The notes beneath the pieces are model-generated. The model worked only from the letters and a program-made list of their open reading frames with translations, did no database searches and was not told the origin of the DNA. From a virus (taxonomy: Duplodnaviria; Caudoviricetes), in IMG/VR virus record IMGVR_UViG_3300022871_001550, positions 670 to 64,669 of that record: a DNA stretch of 64,000 nt. One strand, given 5' to 3'. Below are positions 7,325 through 60,288 of the stretch, piece by piece. The translations under genes and the position numbers were made by a program. The stretch's first letter is position 1, and each line of letters begins with the position of its first letter.

Positions 7325-7361
7325 AAATGTTTTAACTATTTATAAAAAAAAATAAAATACA

Positions 7362-38729: not shown

Positions 38730-39610
38730 ATTAAAAATTTCTTAATTTGTTTACTTTTTTCTTTTATTTCTCTTGTTTTTTCTTCTTTTGTAAGCTTTTT
38801 AAAATCCTCGTAAATTTTTTGCATTTGCTTAATATACGGATTGCTCATATATGTTGGAGAGTGATACATATGAAAAATATCAATAGCAGGATTTTCAGCC
38901 GTATGCATTTTACTAATAGTATCTATTTTTTCCCAAAAATAAGCATCCTCGGGGGAGTTAGCCAAAAACAAATCATCATCATATCCGCCAACATCGAAAA
39001 ACAATTCTCTTTCAACTAAAATAGAACCGCCAGGCGCTCCCAACATAACTTTTCCTCCCAGTCTCGGCAGGTCTATGTTTGAATTGTCTTTCAAATTTAA
39101 TACATCAAATGCTGTAAATTTTTCATTGACAATTTCTTTTGTTAAATTTTCATTACAATATAAAACCCTGCGCTGTTGAAAACATTGAATTGCTTTACAG
39201 TTTTGATTTGTTATGTTTTTGGTTAATTTTACAAAAAAATCAGATTGAACTAAGCAATCAATGTCATGAAATAGAATATATTTAGAGATATTTGAATATA
39301 AAGCTCCTAAATTATAACACAAACATTTGTTAAACAATTCATCAGGAGCCGATTTAATCCAAATGTAATTTATTTTATTTTTTTTGCAAAATTTAGCATG
39401 GTCTGGAATTTCAGAGTGCTCTATAACTGTATAACTTATTGCTAAACTCGAATTTTCTTTAGCTTTTAAGAAACTGTTATACATCGGTTGGGCAAATTCT
39501 ATCCTATTACGCACTGGAATAAGAAAGTTAATATCAAAAAGTTTCTCTGGATTTTGAATTAAAACTAAATTTTCTTCTTTTATTTTTTTGTAATTATTCA
39601 TAACTTTCAA
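38726..39610 (-). CDS. GT2/GT7-like (galactosyltransferase-type) glycosyltransferase
   Basis: IPVRNR, FNKCLCYNLG, FHDID, GG...FFDVGGYDD...ED and HMYH. Confidence 0.8.
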   Translation of the reverse strand: MKVMNNYKKIKEENLVLIQNPEKLFDINFLIPVRNRIEFAQPMYNSFLKAKENSSLAISYTVIEHSEIPDHAKFCKKNKINYIWIKSAPDELFNKCLCYNLGALYSNISKYILFHDIDCLVQSDFFVKLTKNITNQNCKAIQCFQQRRVLYCNENLTKEIVNEKFTAFDVLNLKDNSNIDLPRLGGKVMLGAPGGSILVERELFFDVGGYDDDLFLANSPEDAYFWEKIDTISKMHTAENPAIDIFHMYHSPTYMSNPYIKQMQKIYEDFKKLTKEEKTREIKEKSKQIKKFLI

Positions 39611-42700: not shown

Positions 42701-42729
42701 AACTTTTTTTTTTATAAATAGATTAAATT

Positions 42730-43473: not shown

Positions 43474-43558
43474 ATATTAAATTATTATTTTTTATAAATA
43501 GTTTACCAAAAAACAAAAAATGAAAAAAACTGAATATTTATATAAAAATAATATATCT

Positions 43559-55303: not shown

Positions 55304-55380
55304 GCAATAAATTTTAATCCTCTTTTAGGAATAATGACAGTTTTTTGAAACTATTTATAATTAAATACGTATAATAAAAT

Positions 55381-56877
55381 ATGAAAAATACAAAATTTGT
55401 TGCAATATGTAAAAAAACTCAAAAAGTTTTTAATGATTATAAAAATTTATCTGGAACTTTAACTTCACATTTAAAATTAATTGAGCCCAGTTTAATACAC
55501 CCATCATCTTTTATAAAAAGACAATATAAAAAAATACATAACCAATATTGGCATGAACAATTTTTTAATGTTGTCGAAATAGATGATGATACTGAATATA
55601 AAAAATGTCCTTATTGTAATTGGGAAACTAAAGATATAAAAAATAAATCTGGACAATTTACACTTCACTTAAAAAATAAGCATAATATCAGCATTATTCA
55701 ATATCTAATTGAATTCCCTGAAGAAAAAGAGCTTTTTAAAACTTTCATTAAAAAACATGAAGATAAGGAAAAAACATTTAGTAATGAAGAAAATTTTATT
55801 ATTTGTGCCATATGCAATAAAAAAATGAAATCTTTAACTAATTCTCATCTAAAAAAACATAATATTACATTAAGTGATTATAAGCTTAAATATCCAAATA
55901 GAGAATACCATTCAAAAAGTTTTATTTCTAAAACTTCTAAAAATCTTATAGAAGCAGCAAAAAAAATAAAAAACTCATATGTTTCAAAACCAGAAAAATC
56001 ATTAAAAGAATTTTTATTAACTTTAGGATTAAATATAGATAAAAATAATAGAAAACTTTTAAATGGTGTAGAAATTGATGTAATCAATCATGAAAACAAA
56101 ATTGGAATAGAATTTAATGGAAATTTATATCATTCAGAAAATTATGGTGGAAAGCAAAGAAAATTTCATCTAAATAAAACCGAACTTATGAATCAAAAAA
56201 ATTATCGTTTGATACATATTTTTGAAGATGAATGGGAAAATAAAAATAAAATAGTCAAAAATAAATTAAAGCATATTTTTAACAAAAATAATTCTACAAT
56301 AATTCATGCAAGAAAGTGTATTTTAAAAGAAATAGATTCAACTTTAAAAAATAATTTTTTAAATAATAATCATATTCAAGGTGAAGATAAGTCAAACGTT
56401 CATGTTGGAGCTTTTTTTAATGATGAGCTGATTTCTGTAATGACTTTTGATAATAATAGACAAATGAATAAAAAACAAAATAAAAAAGACGAATACGAAT
56501 TAAAAAGATTTTGTACCTCATCTAAGTATATAATTTCAGGAATTGCAAATAGACTTTTATCTTTCTTTATTAAAAAATACAATCCTAAAAAAATTATAAG
56601 TTTTGCAGATAGAAGATGGACATTAAATAAAAACAATAATCTCTATGTAAACTTAGGATTTAAATTAACTAAAATTTTACCACCTGATTATACATATTAT
56701 AATTCAAAAATTAGTAGATATAAAAGACTCCATAAATTTTCTTTTGGAAAATCATCTTTAAAGAAAAAATATCCAGAAATTTATAATGAAAATAAAACAG
56801 AATGGGAAATGATGCAAGAATTAGGATATGATAGGATTTGGGATTGTGGAAAATTCAAGTATGAATTAATTTTTTAA
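55381..56877 (+). CDS. Putative free-standing homing endonuclease (Hef/Vsr-like PD-(D/E)xK) with zinc fingers and a C-terminal GNAT-like domain
   Basis: CPYC..H..H and CAIC..H..H fingers; EIDV...GIEFNGNLYH...IHIFEDEW; FL..NHIQG, YELKRFC, SFADRRW and GYDRIWDCG; more AT-rich than its neighbours. Confidence 0.7.
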   Translation: MKNTKFVAICKKTQKVFNDYKNLSGTLTSHLKLIEPSLIHPSSFIKRQYKKIHNQYWHEQFFNVVEIDDDTEYKKCPYCNWETKDIKNKSGQFTLHLKNKHNISIIQYLIEFPEEKELFKTFIKKHEDKEKTFSNEENFIICAICNKKMKSLTNSHLKKHNITLSDYKLKYPNREYHSKSFISKTSKNLIEAAKKIKNSYVSKPEKSLKEFLLTLGLNIDKNNRKLLNGVEIDVINHENKIGIEFNGNLYHSENYGGKQRKFHLNKTELMNQKNYRLIHIFEDEWENKNKIVKNKLKHIFNKNNSTIIHARKCILKEIDSTLKNNFLNNNHIQGEDKSNVHVGAFFNDELISVMTFDNNRQMNKKQNKKDEYELKRFCTSSKYIISGIANRLLSFFIKKYNPKKIISFADRRWTLNKNNNLYVNLGFKLTKILPPDYTYYNSKISRYKRLHKFSFGKSSLKKKYPEIYNENKTEWEMMQELGYDRIWDCGKFKYELIF

Positions 56878-56999
56878 ACAAAATCCATTCGCTTTATTTC
56901 ATCTCTAAATGCTTTAAGTTTTCTTTTTTTTACTATTTATAATAAACTACTTGAATGTTTTTCAATCATAGTATAATTATAATATAAAAAATTTTTAAC

Positions 57000-58539: not shown

Positions 58540-59106
58540 ATGAGTGATATAAACGAAATAGGAAAGAAACCAGAAGCTTTCAAAGAACATGAAAATAACC
58601 TAAAAGGTATAAATACGTTCTTTGGTGAAAAAGAAGCTACTTTTTTTCATTCTGCTGGTCGTGAAATTTCTGAACAAATTTTGCAAGAAAGTTTCTTATT
58701 ATATCGCATTGATATTAGAAAAACAAAAACACATAAGCTTTATGGTGAAGCTAAGGTTAAACGCTGGCTTCCAGAAACAGAGGTTTTTGGAAGAATTAAT
58801 GTAGAAGTAGTAGAACCTACTTATCATGTAAAAGGTGGCCTTGTAAAGAAAGGAATGGGTGTATTTACAGCACATATTTACATAGAACATCTTGAAGAGT
58901 TAAATTTAGTAACCAGAAAATCAGATAATGAAATATTAGTAGGATTTAAAACAGGAGATTATCTTGGATTTAAAGGACAATTCTATGAAATATATGATGA
59001 TGGCTATGCACAAATAACTAATAAACATTCTTGGGCTGGTGATAGAAGATTTTATGTTACAATAAAAGCAAATGAAATTGATGAAGATGTTTTTAAGGCA
59101 AGATAG
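58540..59106 (+). CDS. Neck/head-closure protein (T4 gp14-like)
   Basis: LYGEAK.K, then GDYLGFKGQFYEI; follows the gp13-like gene. Confidence 0.7.
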   Translation: MSDINEIGKKPEAFKEHENNLKGINTFFGEKEATFFHSAGREISEQILQESFLLYRIDIRKTKTHKLYGEAKVKRWLPETEVFGRINVEVVEPTYHVKGGLVKKGMGVFTAHIYIEHLEELNLVTRKSDNEILVGFKTGDYLGFKGQFYEIYDDGYAQITNKHSWAGDRRFYVTIKANEIDEDVFKAR

Positions 59107-59445
59107 AAATCCCTCTTAAGGTAATAAAGGTTACTTTATTTTTGCAAGTAAAGAGATTCCTAAGTGAAAGAGCTTTTCTTGAAGCACAGTTCCCCCTATA
59201 GGAAATTTTAAAAAAAAATCCTTTAGAGAAACTGTACTTCGAGGTTAAAAATGCGTCCTTTAGCGATTTCACTCCCCCATCGCAACTAACCTAATCATAT
59301 ACATTGGTTAGCCTGAGACACAATCAGCTGTATATAAGCTGCCTATTCGGGTTTGTCTCTTTGTTCTCCCGTGTCCAAATAATTACCCTTGATGGACTAC
59401 TTGTTATAGGGCAGGTGTTTTTAGCCGTCTCCCTATTAGTATTTC
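59107..59445 (-). ncRNA. Unclassified structured RNA (~340 nt)
   Basis: GC-richer interval with no credible ORF and at least 6 consecutive stems; G-U pairs form only on the minus strand; promoter immediately upstream. Confidence 0.65.
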
Positions 59446-59449
59446 GTGG

Positions 59450-59480
59450 CAAATATATTAAAAATTTTTCAATTATCAAA
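59450..59480 (-). promoter_or_regulatory. Perfect Bacteroidota sigma-A promoter driving the putative ncRNA
   Basis: Minus strand TTTG (59480-59477)-N19-TATATTTG (59457-59450). Confidence 0.75.
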
Positions 59481-59510
59481 AAAAATATAACTATTTATAA
59501 AAAAAAGATT

Positions 59511-60221
59511 ATGTCTGCAGACAAAAATATTGGAAAAAACTTAGAAAATCAGTTTGAAAATCATAATTATTTACCTCAAAAATTAGGGTTAGAAGATTTT
59601 GGTTTTGGAATTAAAGAATTTATTGAACAACAAGAACTTAGTGTAATTATTGAAAATGGCACAATGAAAAAAGTTCCTATAATTTATGTTCAACAAGAAA
59701 AATGGGCTGAAAGAAAGATGAATTGGAATGGAATGAGAAGTGAATTAGGAGAAGAAGTTACTCGTCCATTTATAGCAATGTCTAGGACAAACGTTAAAAG
59801 AGGAACTGCTCCTTTAAAATTTACAATTCCAAGAAAAAAAATGTTTACATTTGTTAAAGTCCCTATTTTTGATGGAACTTTAAAAGGATATGATTTATAT
59901 AAGATACCTCAACCAACTTATGTGGATATTGAATTTGAGGCAATTTTTGTAACTCATTACATGCAAGATGTTGATGATTTTTATGAGATGATGTTAGAAC
60001 AAGCGTTTTCAGATGACCAGGGATATTTTAAAGTTAATGGATATGATATTTCTTCTAAAATTGGAGAACCTTCAGAAAATAATATAGTAGATGAGATTTC
60101 TTCTGAGAGAATTTTTCAAATATCTTTTCCTATTACTGTATTTGGTAAATTAATAGATTCAACAAAATTTGAAAAAGTCAATACTATTACTAAAATTTCT
60201 ATTAAAATTTCGGAGAAATAG
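59511..60221 (+). CDS. Tail terminator/sheath stabiliser (T4 gp15-like); start reassigned from 59304
   Basis: KVPIIY..QEKW, PFIAMSR and IPQPTYVDIEFE; upstream of the sheath gene; TATTTAT at 59492 precedes ATG 59511. Confidence 0.7.
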   Translation: MSADKNIGKNLENQFENHNYLPQKLGLEDFGFGIKEFIEQQELSVIIENGTMKKVPIIYVQQEKWAERKMNWNGMRSELGEEVTRPFIAMSRTNVKRGTAPLKFTIPRKKMFTFVKVPIFDGTLKGYDLYKIPQPTYVDIEFEAIFVTHYMQDVDDFYEMMLEQAFSDDQGYFKVNGYDISSKIGEPSENNIVDEISSERIFQISFPITVFGKLIDSTKFEKVNTITKISIKISEK

Positions 60222-60288
60222 GGAATTTCCTGTTTTTTTTATCTATTTATAAAAAAGAAAAAAATTAAACTTAAGTAAATTTAATAAT

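What the first reader, a model, noticed from the sequence alone, without database searches (positions are those of the whole stretch)
59107..59480. Unannotated ~340-nt multi-stem RNA with its own host-type promoter, antisense within the neck/tail region
Seen: a perfect TTTG-N19-TATATTTG promoter points leftward into a GC-richer gap with no credible ORF. The minus-strand stems, in order, are AUAGGG/CCCUAU; GUCCA/UGGAC; GAGACA/UGUCUC enclosing CAGCU/AGCUG; CUAACC/GGUUAG; GCGAU/AUCGC; a long hairpin GAAGUACAGUUUCUCUAAAGGA...UCCUAUAGGGGGAACUGUGCUUC; and a terminal AAUCUCUU/AAGAGGGAUU stem. Several mismatches are G-U wobbles on this strand but A-C on the other, as expected for selection on RNA structure. 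I do not see tRNA, tmRNA, RNase P or self-splicing intron hallmarks. Inference: a possibly novel phage ncRNA, expressed early, that could act as a protein sponge, anti-defence RNA or regulator.
Basis: partly seen in the sequence, partly recalled or inferred. Interest (0 to 1): 0.8.

Follow-up and report, generated by a model that had tools for sequence, protein, structure and literature searches.

The report
New structured RNA in jumbo phage
Between two neck/tail genes of an uncultured T4-like jumbo phage lies a gene for a roughly 280-345-base folded RNA that encodes no protein, matches no catalogued RNA family, and is swapped for differently folded RNAs at the same spot in related phages.

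Summary
Window 59107-59510 is an ORF-free gap between a neck-like gene and a T4 gp15-like tail-terminator gene. On the minus strand a TTTG-N19-TATATTTG promoter (59450-59480) points into a multi-helix region.

Six homologues were found: five syntenic phage contigs and one in a different context. Across 7 sequences and 46 pairs, 91.9% of cells pair, against 31-44% when partners are slid. 25 pairs show compensatory changes, against 2-5 in the slid controls. Two of his stems, GCGAU/AUCGC and the terminal stem, are not conserved.

Rfam 15 gives no hit and ARAGORN finds nothing. No frame is open across the homologues.

Relatives keep the promoter but carry another RNA: a "main type" with 23 members and its own covariation, and a third type. 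On the gp15 tree the types are interleaved, so this is a hot-spot with exchangeable RNA cargo.

Best reading: an independently transcribed, trans-acting structured RNA made by host polymerase, probably a protein-binding host-interaction or anti-defence RNA. Expression and function are untested. It is a new RNA family of moderately high interest.

The parts
59450..59480 (-). Host-type promoter: a TTTG (-33) box, 19 nt, then a TATATTTG (-7) box. The predicted start is near 59443 +/- 3.
   Evidence: One search gives the exact match. Searches show it conserved in the 26 aligned syntenic gaps (24 exact -7 boxes). The consensus is quoted in a passage of PMC7366714. The same site also reads as TTGATA-16-TATATT, 10 of 12 to sigma-70.
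59168..59440 (-). Conserved structured core of the RNA (the match to covariance model R1)
   Evidence: 247.2 bits, E about 1e-82. One search gives the covariation statistics.
59406..59436 (-). P1 hairpin (AUAGGG/CCCUAU) with a conserved loop, AGACGG...ACACCUG
   Evidence: helix 1; all 7 homologues fold independently to P1 of 7-9 bp, plus an AG/CU pair step and a bulged G.
59373..59397 (-). H2 hairpin (GUCCA/UGGAC) with invariant AAGGG in the loop
   Evidence: helix 2: 3 of 5 pairs have compensatory changes and 94% of cells pair. One search gives the invariant columns.
59315..59371 (-). Pseudoknot domain. H3 CGGG (59368-59371) pairs with CCCG (59348-59351) and crosses H4 GAGACA (59354-59359)/UGUCUC (59315-59320). 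H5 CAGCU/AGCUG (59325-59341) sits inside H4.
   Evidence: helices 3, 4 and 5. H3 and H4 pair in 100% of cells, with 3 of 4 and 4 of 6 pairs compensatory. H5 has 3 of 5 compensatory.
59286..59311 (-). H6 hairpin (CUAACC+AAU / AUU+A+GGUUAG)
   Evidence: helix 6: 6 of 9 pairs compensatory.
59241..59278 (-). H7 domain. An invariant G-run (59274-59278) pairs with a CC-containing pyrimidine stretch and closes a variable hairpin.
   Evidence: independent folds of the 7 homologues; invariant G163-G167.
59181..59240 (-). H8 long hairpin. It has an outer stem, a pyrimidine-run/G-run step, an internal loop carrying invariant UAGGGGGAACU, and an apical stem that differs in sequence in every homologue.
   Evidence: helix 7; the same architecture in 7 of 7 independent folds. 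The weak miRNA-like Rfam hits are this hairpin.
59107..59180 (-). A-U-rich 3' tail, conserved in sequence but not convincingly in structure. It ends in GGG-N-A-U-run next to the stop codon of the upstream gene. The 3' end is not defined.
   Evidence: The non-syntenic homologue L148 shares tail sequence and has a strong terminator about 130 nt after H8.
59491..59498 (+). CTATTTAT motif followed by an A-run, 13 nt before the ATG at 59511. This is the phage's own promoter-like motif for the + strand gene. It sits back to back with the RNA promoter and is not part of the RNA.
   Evidence: the same motif, in gene orientation, lies 13-60 nt upstream of at least 7 gene starts in the window. It is invariant in the 26 aligned gaps.
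58540..59106 (+). Upstream flank: a 188-aa neck/stopper-like protein (gp14-like position)
   Evidence: model pLDDT 61; Foldseek 9b42_A E 6e-4 and T4 neck complex 9mkb_0 E 3.6e-3. There is no Pfam, PHROG or PDB sequence hit.
59511..60221 (+). Downstream flank: a 236-aa tail terminator with the T4 gp15 fold
   Evidence: pLDDT 67.8; 9mkb_AB E 1e-9; 4hud_A E 1.3e-7.

Best explanation
This is the gene of a stand-alone structured non-coding RNA. The core is about 275 nt and the whole is about 340 nt if the A-U-rich tail is included. It is read leftward from a host-type (Bacteroidota sigma-A) promoter that sits back to back with the phage's own promoter for the gp15-like gene.

The RNA folds into seven nested helices or helical domains plus one crossing helix: P1, H2, an H-type pseudoknot (H3 crossing H4, with H5 inside H4), H6, a G-run domain (H7) and a long hairpin (H8). 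Invariant purine-rich loops are displayed on these helices.

I infer that unmodified host RNA polymerase makes it, so it appears from the start of infection. I infer that it acts in trans, not on its neighbouring genes. Most likely it binds and sequesters or redirects a protein, as a host-takeover or anti-defence decoy or scaffold.

The slot is a diversification hot-spot. Related phages keep the promoter but carry structurally different RNAs there, and the types are exchanged between close relatives.

Shown: conservation, covariation, strand, promoter motif, absence of coding capacity, absence from Rfam, and type replacement. Inferred: transcription, early timing, action in trans and protein binding.

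My odds by level: a real structured RNA gene about 0.93; trans-acting about 0.65; protein-binding host-interaction or anti-defence role about 0.4.
For: Structure: 7 homologues, 46 pairs. 91.9% of cells pair against 30.8-44.4% with slid partners. 25 pairs carry compensatory changes against 2-5 slid. 0 of 500 shuffles reach the paired percentage or the covariation score. Independent single-sequence folds of P1, H7 and H8 give the same architecture in 7 of 7, with different stem sequences.

Strand: 14 G-U against 5 A-C cells. All 7 fold more stably on this strand, though only by 1.4 kcal/mol in L148. The window gives z -3.28 on this strand against -2.08 on the other.

Promoter: conserved in all 26 aligned gaps. 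In the wider set of 64 loci, 37 match a strict pattern. The consensus is as quoted in PMC7366714.

Not coding: every frame of every homologue has at least one stop, and the longest ATG ORF in the window gap is 12 aa.

Trans rather than cis: the same RNA occurs in L148 without the neck genes. There it sits beside an integrase-family gene, behind the phage-type CTATTTATA motif, and before a strong terminator. In L039 and L036, inserted ORFs separate the RNA from one or the other flanking gene.

Hot-spot with turnover: R2 finds 23 'main-type' RNAs in the same slot, with covariation of their own (88.7% paired against 39-54% slid; 31 against 14-20 compensatory pairs). L036/L037 hold a third type. 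On the gp15 tree all 6 window-type carriers fall in one supported clade of 9, mixed with 3 main-type carriers. That needs 3 changes, and starred branches force at least 2.

The RNA is single copy in two near-complete genomes of 372 and 291 kb.
Against: There is no expression evidence at all, and the 5' and 3' ends are predictions. The promoter pattern alone is not enriched in the window (5 matches against 4.46 expected).

The window-type family has only 7 members in three close pairs or triplets, so many compensatory 'cells' are inherited rather than independent. The alignment used was fitted to a model built from the same sequences.

No terminator was found at the window's 3' end by the scan, and the tail is not significantly structured.

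Nothing identifies a partner protein. The three small proteins next to the RNA in L148 have no convincing counterpart in the window-type phage genomes; the best match has E 0.004.

The hot-spot argument for anti-defence is circumstantial. In L170 the RNA is followed by three same-strand ORFs, which would also fit a leader function.
Confidence: 0.45

Rival explanations
1. A cis-acting regulatory transcript or promoter-interference device. Early leftward transcription from the host-type promoter occludes the back-to-back phage promoter of the gp15-like gene. It may also read antisense into the gp14-like gene, delaying neck and tail-terminator expression. On this view the folded RNA mainly stabilises or terminates that transcript.
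For: The two promoters sit 9-11 nt apart in 25 of 26 aligned gaps, so polymerases at one would exclude the other. No clear terminator separates the RNA from the convergent gene in the window. The position is conserved over all relatives.
Against: Interference needs no 275-nt covarying multi-helix fold with a pseudoknot and invariant loops. The same RNA occurs without these genes in L148. Inserted ORFs uncouple it from gp15-like in L039 and from gp14-like in L036. Many syntenic homologues have hairpins and U-runs in the tail.
Confidence: 0.15
2. An RNA cofactor of virion assembly or DNA packaging, analogous in role to phi29 pRNA. It would act with the neck and tail-terminator proteins encoded on either side.
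For: It has a fixed place between a neck-like gene and the gp15-like gene over relatives down to about 51% protein identity. It is multi-domain and single copy.
Against: There is no similarity to pRNA or any Rfam family. The flanking proteins stay 51-77% identical while the RNA is replaced by structurally different types in close relatives. That is hard to reconcile with a conserved structural partner. L148 carries the RNA without virion genes nearby on its 3.3-kb contig.
Confidence: 0.08
3. A catalytic or ligand-sensing RNA, that is a ribozyme or an orphan aptamer. Its pseudoknot and invariant loops would form an active site or binding pocket.
For: It has an H-type pseudoknot with an A-rich loop, and several invariant unpaired stretches (AGACGG, ACACCUG, AAGGG, GAGAACAAA, UAGGGGGAACU).
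Against: No known ribozyme or riboswitch model matches even at E up to 10. In the window there is no downstream gene on this strand to regulate. Replacement by differently folded RNAs argues against one precise active site.
Confidence: 0.1
4. The structured 5' leader of an early operon, which has lost its genes in the window phage.
For: In L170, the closest gp15 relative at 76% identity, a short main-type RNA is followed on the same strand by ORFs of 68, 126 and 228 aa.
Against: In the window and in 25 other aligned gaps the RNA runs straight into a convergent structural gene with no same-strand ORF. Conservation of the fold without any gene to control would then be unexplained.
Confidence: 0.07
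5. Not an RNA gene. It would be a DNA-level element (recombination hot-spot, replication or packaging signal) or chance structure in a spacer.
For: The slot is a site of insertions and replacements. Single-sequence fold z-scores are modest for some members: L171 gives -1.64, and the tails are near zero.
Against: Compensatory changes keep Watson-Crick and G-U pairs on one strand only. An oriented promoter is conserved. In the window-type family, sequence identity is concentrated in loops rather than stems.
Confidence: 0.05

Closest known systems
GOLLD and ROOL (large 'ornate' structured RNAs, often in phages or prophages, function unknown)
   Same: Carried by a phage, non-coding, many helices with pseudoknots, and supported by covariation with no known function. 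I saw only the listing and abstract of PMC12286853 and PMC5737381.
   Different: There is no match to their Rfam models. At about 275-345 nt it is much smaller than those RNAs, which are several hundred nt longer (sizes recalled, not from a call). It is not next to tRNA genes: ARAGORN finds none in the window or in 28 loci. The host lineage differs, as inferred from the promoter.
phi29 pRNA (packaging RNA)
   Same: A phage-encoded structured RNA transcribed on its own. The comparison with a virion-assembly role rests on its place among neck and tail genes.
   Different: No match to the Rfam pRNA model. The properties of pRNA are recalled, not tested here. The turnover of RNA type between close relatives does not fit a conserved assembly partner.
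Intergenic sRNAs of Bacteroidota driven by TTTG / TAnnTTTG promoters (e.g. GibS in B. thetaiotaomicron)
   Same: The same promoter architecture (passage in PMC7366714). It is an intergenic, independent gene.
   Different: It is much larger and multi-domain with a pseudoknot, it is phage-encoded, and no seed-like single-stranded targeting region is evident. The best hit to a Bacteroides sRNA model (BTnc060) scores 19.6 bits against a threshold of 228.9.
Phage RNA decoys against host immunity (RNA-based anti-CRISPRs and similar)
   Same: This is what it may work like: a phage-made RNA from an early-type promoter, sitting in a variable hot-spot. The comparison is recalled from the field, not from a call.
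   Different: No resemblance to a CRISPR repeat or any host RNA was tested or shown. Those decoys are short repeats, whereas this is a complex fold.

Membership tests
Any Rfam 15 family (tmRNA, 6S, RNase P, SRP, pRNA, GOLLD, ROOL, HEARO, introns, ribozymes, riboswitches, Bacteroides sRNAs) | Covariance-model score at or above the family's gathering score | tested here: not met
   There were 0 matches in the whole window and 0 in 20 related loci. At E up to 10 on 58900-59700 only chance-level hits appear, the best at 24.2 bits against a threshold of 90.
tRNA / tmRNA | Cloverleaf or tRNA-like domain (plus a tag reading frame for tmRNA) detectable by ARAGORN | tested here: not met
   0 genes in the window and 0 in 28 loci that hold the slot RNAs.
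Conserved structured RNA (generic criterion) | Base pairs kept through compensatory changes, beyond shuffled and slid controls | tested here: met
   25 of 46 pairs are compensatory against 2-5 in slid controls. 91.9% of cells pair against 31-44%. 0 of 500 shuffles reach this. Caveat: only 7 related sequences, and the alignment was fitted to the model.
Transcription unit of the Bacteroidota primary sigma factor | A -7 box TAnnTTTG with a TTTG box near -33 | tested here: met
   (59450-59480, minus strand); 24 of 26 aligned gaps have an exact -7 box. The consensus is from PMC7366714.
Transcription unit of the Bacteroidota primary sigma factor | A mapped transcription start downstream of the boxes | not testable with these tools
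   No RNA run was listed for this sequence.
Canonical intergenic sRNA gene (promoter plus intrinsic terminator) | A G+C-rich hairpin followed by a U-run at the 3' end | tested here: inconclusive
   The scan found none at the window's 3' end. The tail ends in a weak stem plus a U-rich stretch. The L148 homologue has a strong terminator about 130 nt after H8.
cis-antisense RNA | The transcribed region overlaps a gene on the other strand | tested here: not met
   The conserved core 59168-59440 lies wholly inside the gap 59107-59510. Read-through into 58540-59106 cannot be excluded without RNA data.
Small protein gene | A reading frame open and conserved across homologues | tested here: not met
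   All six frames of all 7 homologues contain stops. The longest ATG ORF in the window gap is 12 aa.

The most novel reading that the evidence does not exclude
The slot between the neck and tail-terminator genes of this clade of T4-like jumbo phages would be an RNA 'arsenal' locus. One conserved host-type early promoter drives interchangeable, structurally unrelated folded RNAs. There are at least three types, and they are swapped between close relatives. They would act as RNA-only anti-defence or host-takeover effectors, an RNA counterpart of protein anti-defence hot-spots, with the turnover driven by an arms race.
Probability: 0.25. Interest if true: 0.85.

Novelty: new variant of a known kind. 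Interest (0 to 1): 0.66.

Why it matters
Few phage-encoded structured RNAs are known, and almost none from phages of Bacteroidota or from T4-like jumbo phages. This one has covariation support that includes a pseudoknot, a conserved host-type promoter, and a clear evolutionary pattern. The promoter and position are kept while the RNA is replaced by differently folded ones.

That pattern suggests RNAs acting at the phage-host interface. It gives two or three new RNA families, with 7 and 23 or more members, that can be added to RNA databases and tested directly. If they prove to be RNA-only effectors, they would widen the known repertoire of phage counter-measures and give new protein-binding RNA scaffolds.

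Tried and rejected
**Known families**
- Rfam at gathering and at permissive thresholds gave nothing meaningful.
- ARAGORN gave nothing.

**Expression and earlier work**
- No RNA holder was listed, so read laying could not be used.

**Isolated phages**
- There was no DNA match to isolated phages. The only protein match for the gp15-like gene is a Microcystis phage at 26% identity, so no cultured relative or annotated host is known.

**Pattern scans**
- A first, looser DNA pattern was useless. It matched 103 stretches, 80 of them listed, and only 4 of those listed lie on the contigs already known to carry the RNA.
- The tighter pattern gave 4 of 4 true hits in IMG/VR.
- In metagenomes it gave 11 hits: 4 known, 2 new, and 5 G+C-rich chance hits.
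- In representative prokaryote genomes 0 of 9 hits were real.

**Cross-type tests**
- Model R1 does not find the main type or the L036 type, and R2 does not find the window type. Common descent of the types is therefore undecided. They share only G-run/pyrimidine-run helices and a GGGGGGCG(A/U) motif, seen by eye.

**Partner proteins**
- The three small proteins next to the RNA in L148 were sought in five window-type phage records. There was no convincing match; the best has E 0.004.

**Folding tests that did not help**
- Folding of the 3' tails gave no significant conserved structure.
- Single-sequence fold z-scores of the unclassified slots do not discriminate, since a true member scores only -1.64.

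**Flanking proteins**
- PDB sequence searches found nothing useful. Structure prediction plus Foldseek was needed.

**Ideas considered by eye and dropped**
- tmRNA-like or tRNA-like pieces in the main type: not conserved between subclades, and ARAGORN is negative.
- G-quadruplex: covariation shows the G-runs pair with pyrimidine runs.
- A loop-to-tail pseudoknot in the main type: no informative variation.

**Steps cut short**
The same regions were then folded by reference.
- One paper reading failed on a malformed term.

**Literature**
- Searches found no description of this RNA.
- The motif catalogues PMC8040213, PMC5737381 and PMC2864571 list candidates in supplements that I could not open. 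A prior listing as an unnamed candidate motif cannot be excluded.

Full report
**What is at the site.** Window 59107-59510 is a 404-nt gap between two + strand ORFs, 58540-59106 (188 aa) and 59511-60221 (236 aa). It is richer in G+C than its flanks, up to 0.385 against 0.24-0.30, with reversed GC skew. On the minus strand the sequence TTTG, 19 nt, TATATTTG lies at 59450-59480. The minus strand (344 nt) folds at -90.3 kcal/mol, z -3.28, with 0 of 100 dinucleotide shuffles as stable. The plus strand gives -78.6, z -2.08, with 3 of 100.

**Genome context.** The window is nearly all of a 64.7-kb IMG/VR virus record, estimated at 20% complete. It encodes a T4-type major capsid protein (Pfam Gp23, E 4e-72) and a tail sheath. 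The downstream 236-aa protein, modelled from 21 homologues (pLDDT 67.8), matches the T4 tail terminator gp15 (9mkb_AB E 1e-9; 4hud_A E 1.3e-7). The upstream 188-aa protein (pLDDT 61) matches neck/stopper proteins more weakly (9b42_A E 6e-4; T4 complex 9mkb_0 E 3.6e-3). There is no close cultured relative.

**Homologues and synteny.** Searches with the two flanking proteins fetched 39 loci from IMG/VR. After removing rows from the same contig, 28 loci hold both genes side by side. The gap is 290-447 nt in 26 of them and 912 nt in 2 identical ones. No ORF is shared among the gaps.

Aligning 26 gaps on the minus strand shows three features:
- An invariant ATAAATAG, which is CTATTTAT on the + strand, just before the gp15-like ATG.
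- 9-11 nt further on, in 25 of 26, a TTTG-like box.
- 19-21 nt after that, TAnnTTTG (24 of 26 exact).

These two boxes are the consensus of the primary sigma factor of Bacteroidota, as quoted in the introduction of PMC7366714. CTATTTAT followed by an A-run, in gene orientation, lies 13-60 nt upstream of at least 7 gene starts in the window. It is therefore the phage's own promoter-like motif and belongs to the + strand gene, not to the RNA.

**The window-type RNA.** By sequence the window's gap resembles only L003, L001 and L005 (nhmmer E 7e-35, 3e-26, 8e-10), and L007 by alignment. A motif pattern found the same 4 contigs in IMG/VR, 4 of 4 hits. In JGI metagenomes it gave 11 hits: those 4 again, 2 new members (L148, L152), and 5 G+C-rich chance hits. 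In 185,579 representative prokaryote genomes 0 of 9 hits were real.

A covariance model (R1; 278 positions, 42 pairs) scores the 7 members at 237-288 bits. Nothing else among 32 and later 64 sources scores significantly. The RNA is single copy in two near-complete genomes of 372 and 291 kb.

**Structure.** On the 7-sequence alignment, 46 pairs in 7 helices give the following:
- 91.9% paired cells, against 74.9% for shuffles (0 of 500 as high) and 30.8-44.4% when partners are slid by 1-3 columns.
- 25 pairs with changes on both sides, against 2-5 in the slid controls.

Helix by helix, in window letters:

| Helix | Pairing | Support |
|---|---|---|
| P1 | AUAGGG/CCCUAU | closes a loop with invariant AGACGG...ACACCUG |
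| H2 | GUCCA/UGGAC | invariant AAGGG in the loop |
| H3 | CGGG/CCCG | 4 bp, 3 compensatory, 100% paired |
| H4 | GAGACA/UGUCUC | 6 bp, 4 compensatory, 100% paired |
| H5 | CAGCU/AGCUG | lies inside H4 |
| H6 | CUAACC/GGUUAG plus AAU/AUU | 6 of 9 compensatory |
| H8 | long hairpin | same architecture in 7 of 7 folds |

MAFFT and the model leave P1 of L005/L007 and H8 of the window and L148 out of register. I therefore also folded sub-regions of each sequence on its own. All 7 give P1 of 7-9 bp plus an AG/CU step and a bulged G. All 7 give an H7 domain in which the invariant G-run pairs with a CC-containing pyrimidine stretch around a hairpin of varying sequence. All 7 give H8 as an outer stem, a pyrimidine-run/G-run step, an internal loop with invariant UAGGGGGAACU, and an apical stem whose sequence differs in every member.

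His terminal stem is not supported. The tails fold no better than shuffles (z -1.67 to +1.25 for the six syntenic members). Tail sequence is nevertheless shared even with the non-syntenic L148.

**Strand and coding.** Helices hold 14 G-U cells against 5 A-C cells. All 7 members fold more stably on the promoter's strand, by only 1.4 kcal/mol in L148 and by 8-15 in the others. All six frames of all 7 members carry stops.

**Known families.** Rfam 15 gives no match at gathering score in the window or in 20 related loci. At E up to 10 only chance-level hits to the long hairpin appear. ARAGORN finds nothing in the window or in 28 loci. Literature searches turned up no description. Supplementary motif catalogues could not be opened.

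**The slot in relatives.** Most relatives carry a different RNA behind the same promoter. An RNAalifold consensus of 8 such sequences gave model R2. R2 finds 23 'main-type' RNAs at 33-263 bits among 31 sources, but not the window type or L036. It also hits 33 of 64 loci fetched with a gp15 alignment.

The main type's own support is 88.7% paired against 39-54% slid, and 31 of 46 compensatory pairs against 14-20, on a model-fitted alignment. On a plain MAFFT alignment its first hairpin has 8 of 8 compensatory pairs. Its hallmark is a long-range helix between a pyrimidine run and GGGGGG-UAA-GGGGGG, rich in G-U pairs.

L036/L037 hold a third type with the same promoter and with G-runs paired to C-runs, next to an inserted 158-aa ORF. 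Of the 64 loci, 4 lack upstream sequence and 23 match neither model. Some of these have low-G+C gaps without the promoter and may hold no RNA.

On a maximum-likelihood tree of 44 gp15-like proteins, all 6 window-type carriers fall in one supported clade of 9 (98/90) together with 3 carriers of short main-type RNAs. The labels need 3 changes, and supported branches force at least 2. The window's nearest relative, L170 (76% identity), carries a short main-type RNA followed by three same-strand ORFs. In L039 two ORFs lie between the RNA and the gp15-like gene.

L148 is a 3.3-kb metagenome contig that carries the window-type RNA with no neck genes. There it sits beside an integrase-family gene (Pfam E 6e-17), preceded by CTATTTATA on the RNA strand and followed by a strong terminator.

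**What it most likely does.**
- Shown: a conserved fold on one strand, an oriented and conserved host-type promoter, no coding capacity, independence from either neighbour, and replacement by other folded RNAs in close relatives.
- Inferred: it is transcribed by unmodified host polymerase, and hence early, by analogy with T4 early promoters (established knowledge, not tested here). It acts in trans. With its size, pseudoknot and invariant purine-rich loops, it works as a protein-binding RNA rather than as a base-pairing sRNA.
- Interpretation: a conserved early promoter, exchangeable cargo and sporadic ORF insertions are the signature of phage hot-spots for host-interaction functions. I therefore favour a decoy or scaffold for a host or phage protein, in takeover or anti-defence. 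This last step is circumstantial, at about 0.4.
- Rivals: promoter interference or antisense control, an assembly cofactor, a ribozyme or aptamer, a leader of lost early genes, and a DNA-level element. Each is listed with its evidence.

**Limits.** There are no expression data, and the ends are not mapped. The window-type family has 7 members in a few close groups, so counts of compensatory cells overstate independent events. Models and alignments were built from the same sequences. Whether the three RNA types share ancestry is undecided. The host phylum is inferred from the promoter alone.

Noticed in passing
window 7336-7343, 55351-55358, 56933-56940, 59491-59498, 60243-60250 (all CTATTTAT on the + strand); 2948-2955, 42714-42721, 43494-43501 (on the - strand): CTATTTAT preceded by a T-run and followed by an A-run lies 13-60 nt upstream of many gene starts, in gene orientation. 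It is a candidate promoter of the phage's own (middle or late) transcription and is invariant before the gp15-like gene in 26 relatives. Its reverse complement contains TATAAATA, the T4 late-promoter word (recalled), but the orientation here is the opposite.
   Followed up: partly
window 55381-56877 (+): A 498-aa ORF between the major capsid gene and the neck genes. It matches PHROG 'homing endonuclease' and 'HNH endonuclease' families (E 5e-83 and 2.5e-70) and weakly matches a restriction-endonuclease-like Pfam domain. It is probably a mobile endonuclease inserted in the structural module.
   Followed up: no
L148:590-1010 (-) and L148:2453-3064 (-): The window-type RNA occurs on a 3.3-kb metagenome contig without neck genes. 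It lies beside a Phage_integrase-family gene and three small ORFs of unknown family, behind CTATTTATA and before a strong intrinsic terminator (fold -42.7 kcal/mol, z -4.3).
   Followed up: partly
L036:3593-4464 (same sequence in L037): In relatives at 54% identity the slot holds an inserted 158-aa + strand ORF with no PHROG match. It also holds a third kind of G-run-rich RNA behind the same TTTG-N20-TATATTTG promoter. Neither R1 nor R2 recognises that RNA.
   Followed up: partly
L170:30-1549 (-): In the closest gp15 relative (76% identity) a short main-type RNA of about 180 nt is followed on the same strand by ORFs of 68, 126 and 228 aa. The neck-like gene was not found within 1.6 kb upstream.
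   Followed up: no
L039:3929-6563 (+): Two ORFs (306 aa with no family; 570+ aa matching PHROG 25468, of unknown function) are inserted between the RNA's promoter and the gp15-like gene. The RNA stays next to the neck-like gene.
   Followed up: no
L204, L208-L210, L215, L216, L218 (gaps of 957-1018 nt); L214, L217, L219 (320 nt, G+C 0.50); L196, L211, L222-L224, L227: More distant relatives have gaps matched by neither RNA model. Some keep the host-type promoter (L196, L222-L224). Others have low G+C and no promoter. Further RNA types, or loss of the RNA, are possible.
   Followed up: partly
window 39360-39390 (-) and 56256-56286 (-): Other exact matches to TTTG-N18-21-TAnnTTTG. The total of 5 in the window is what chance gives (4.46 expected), so their meaning is open.
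   Followed up: no
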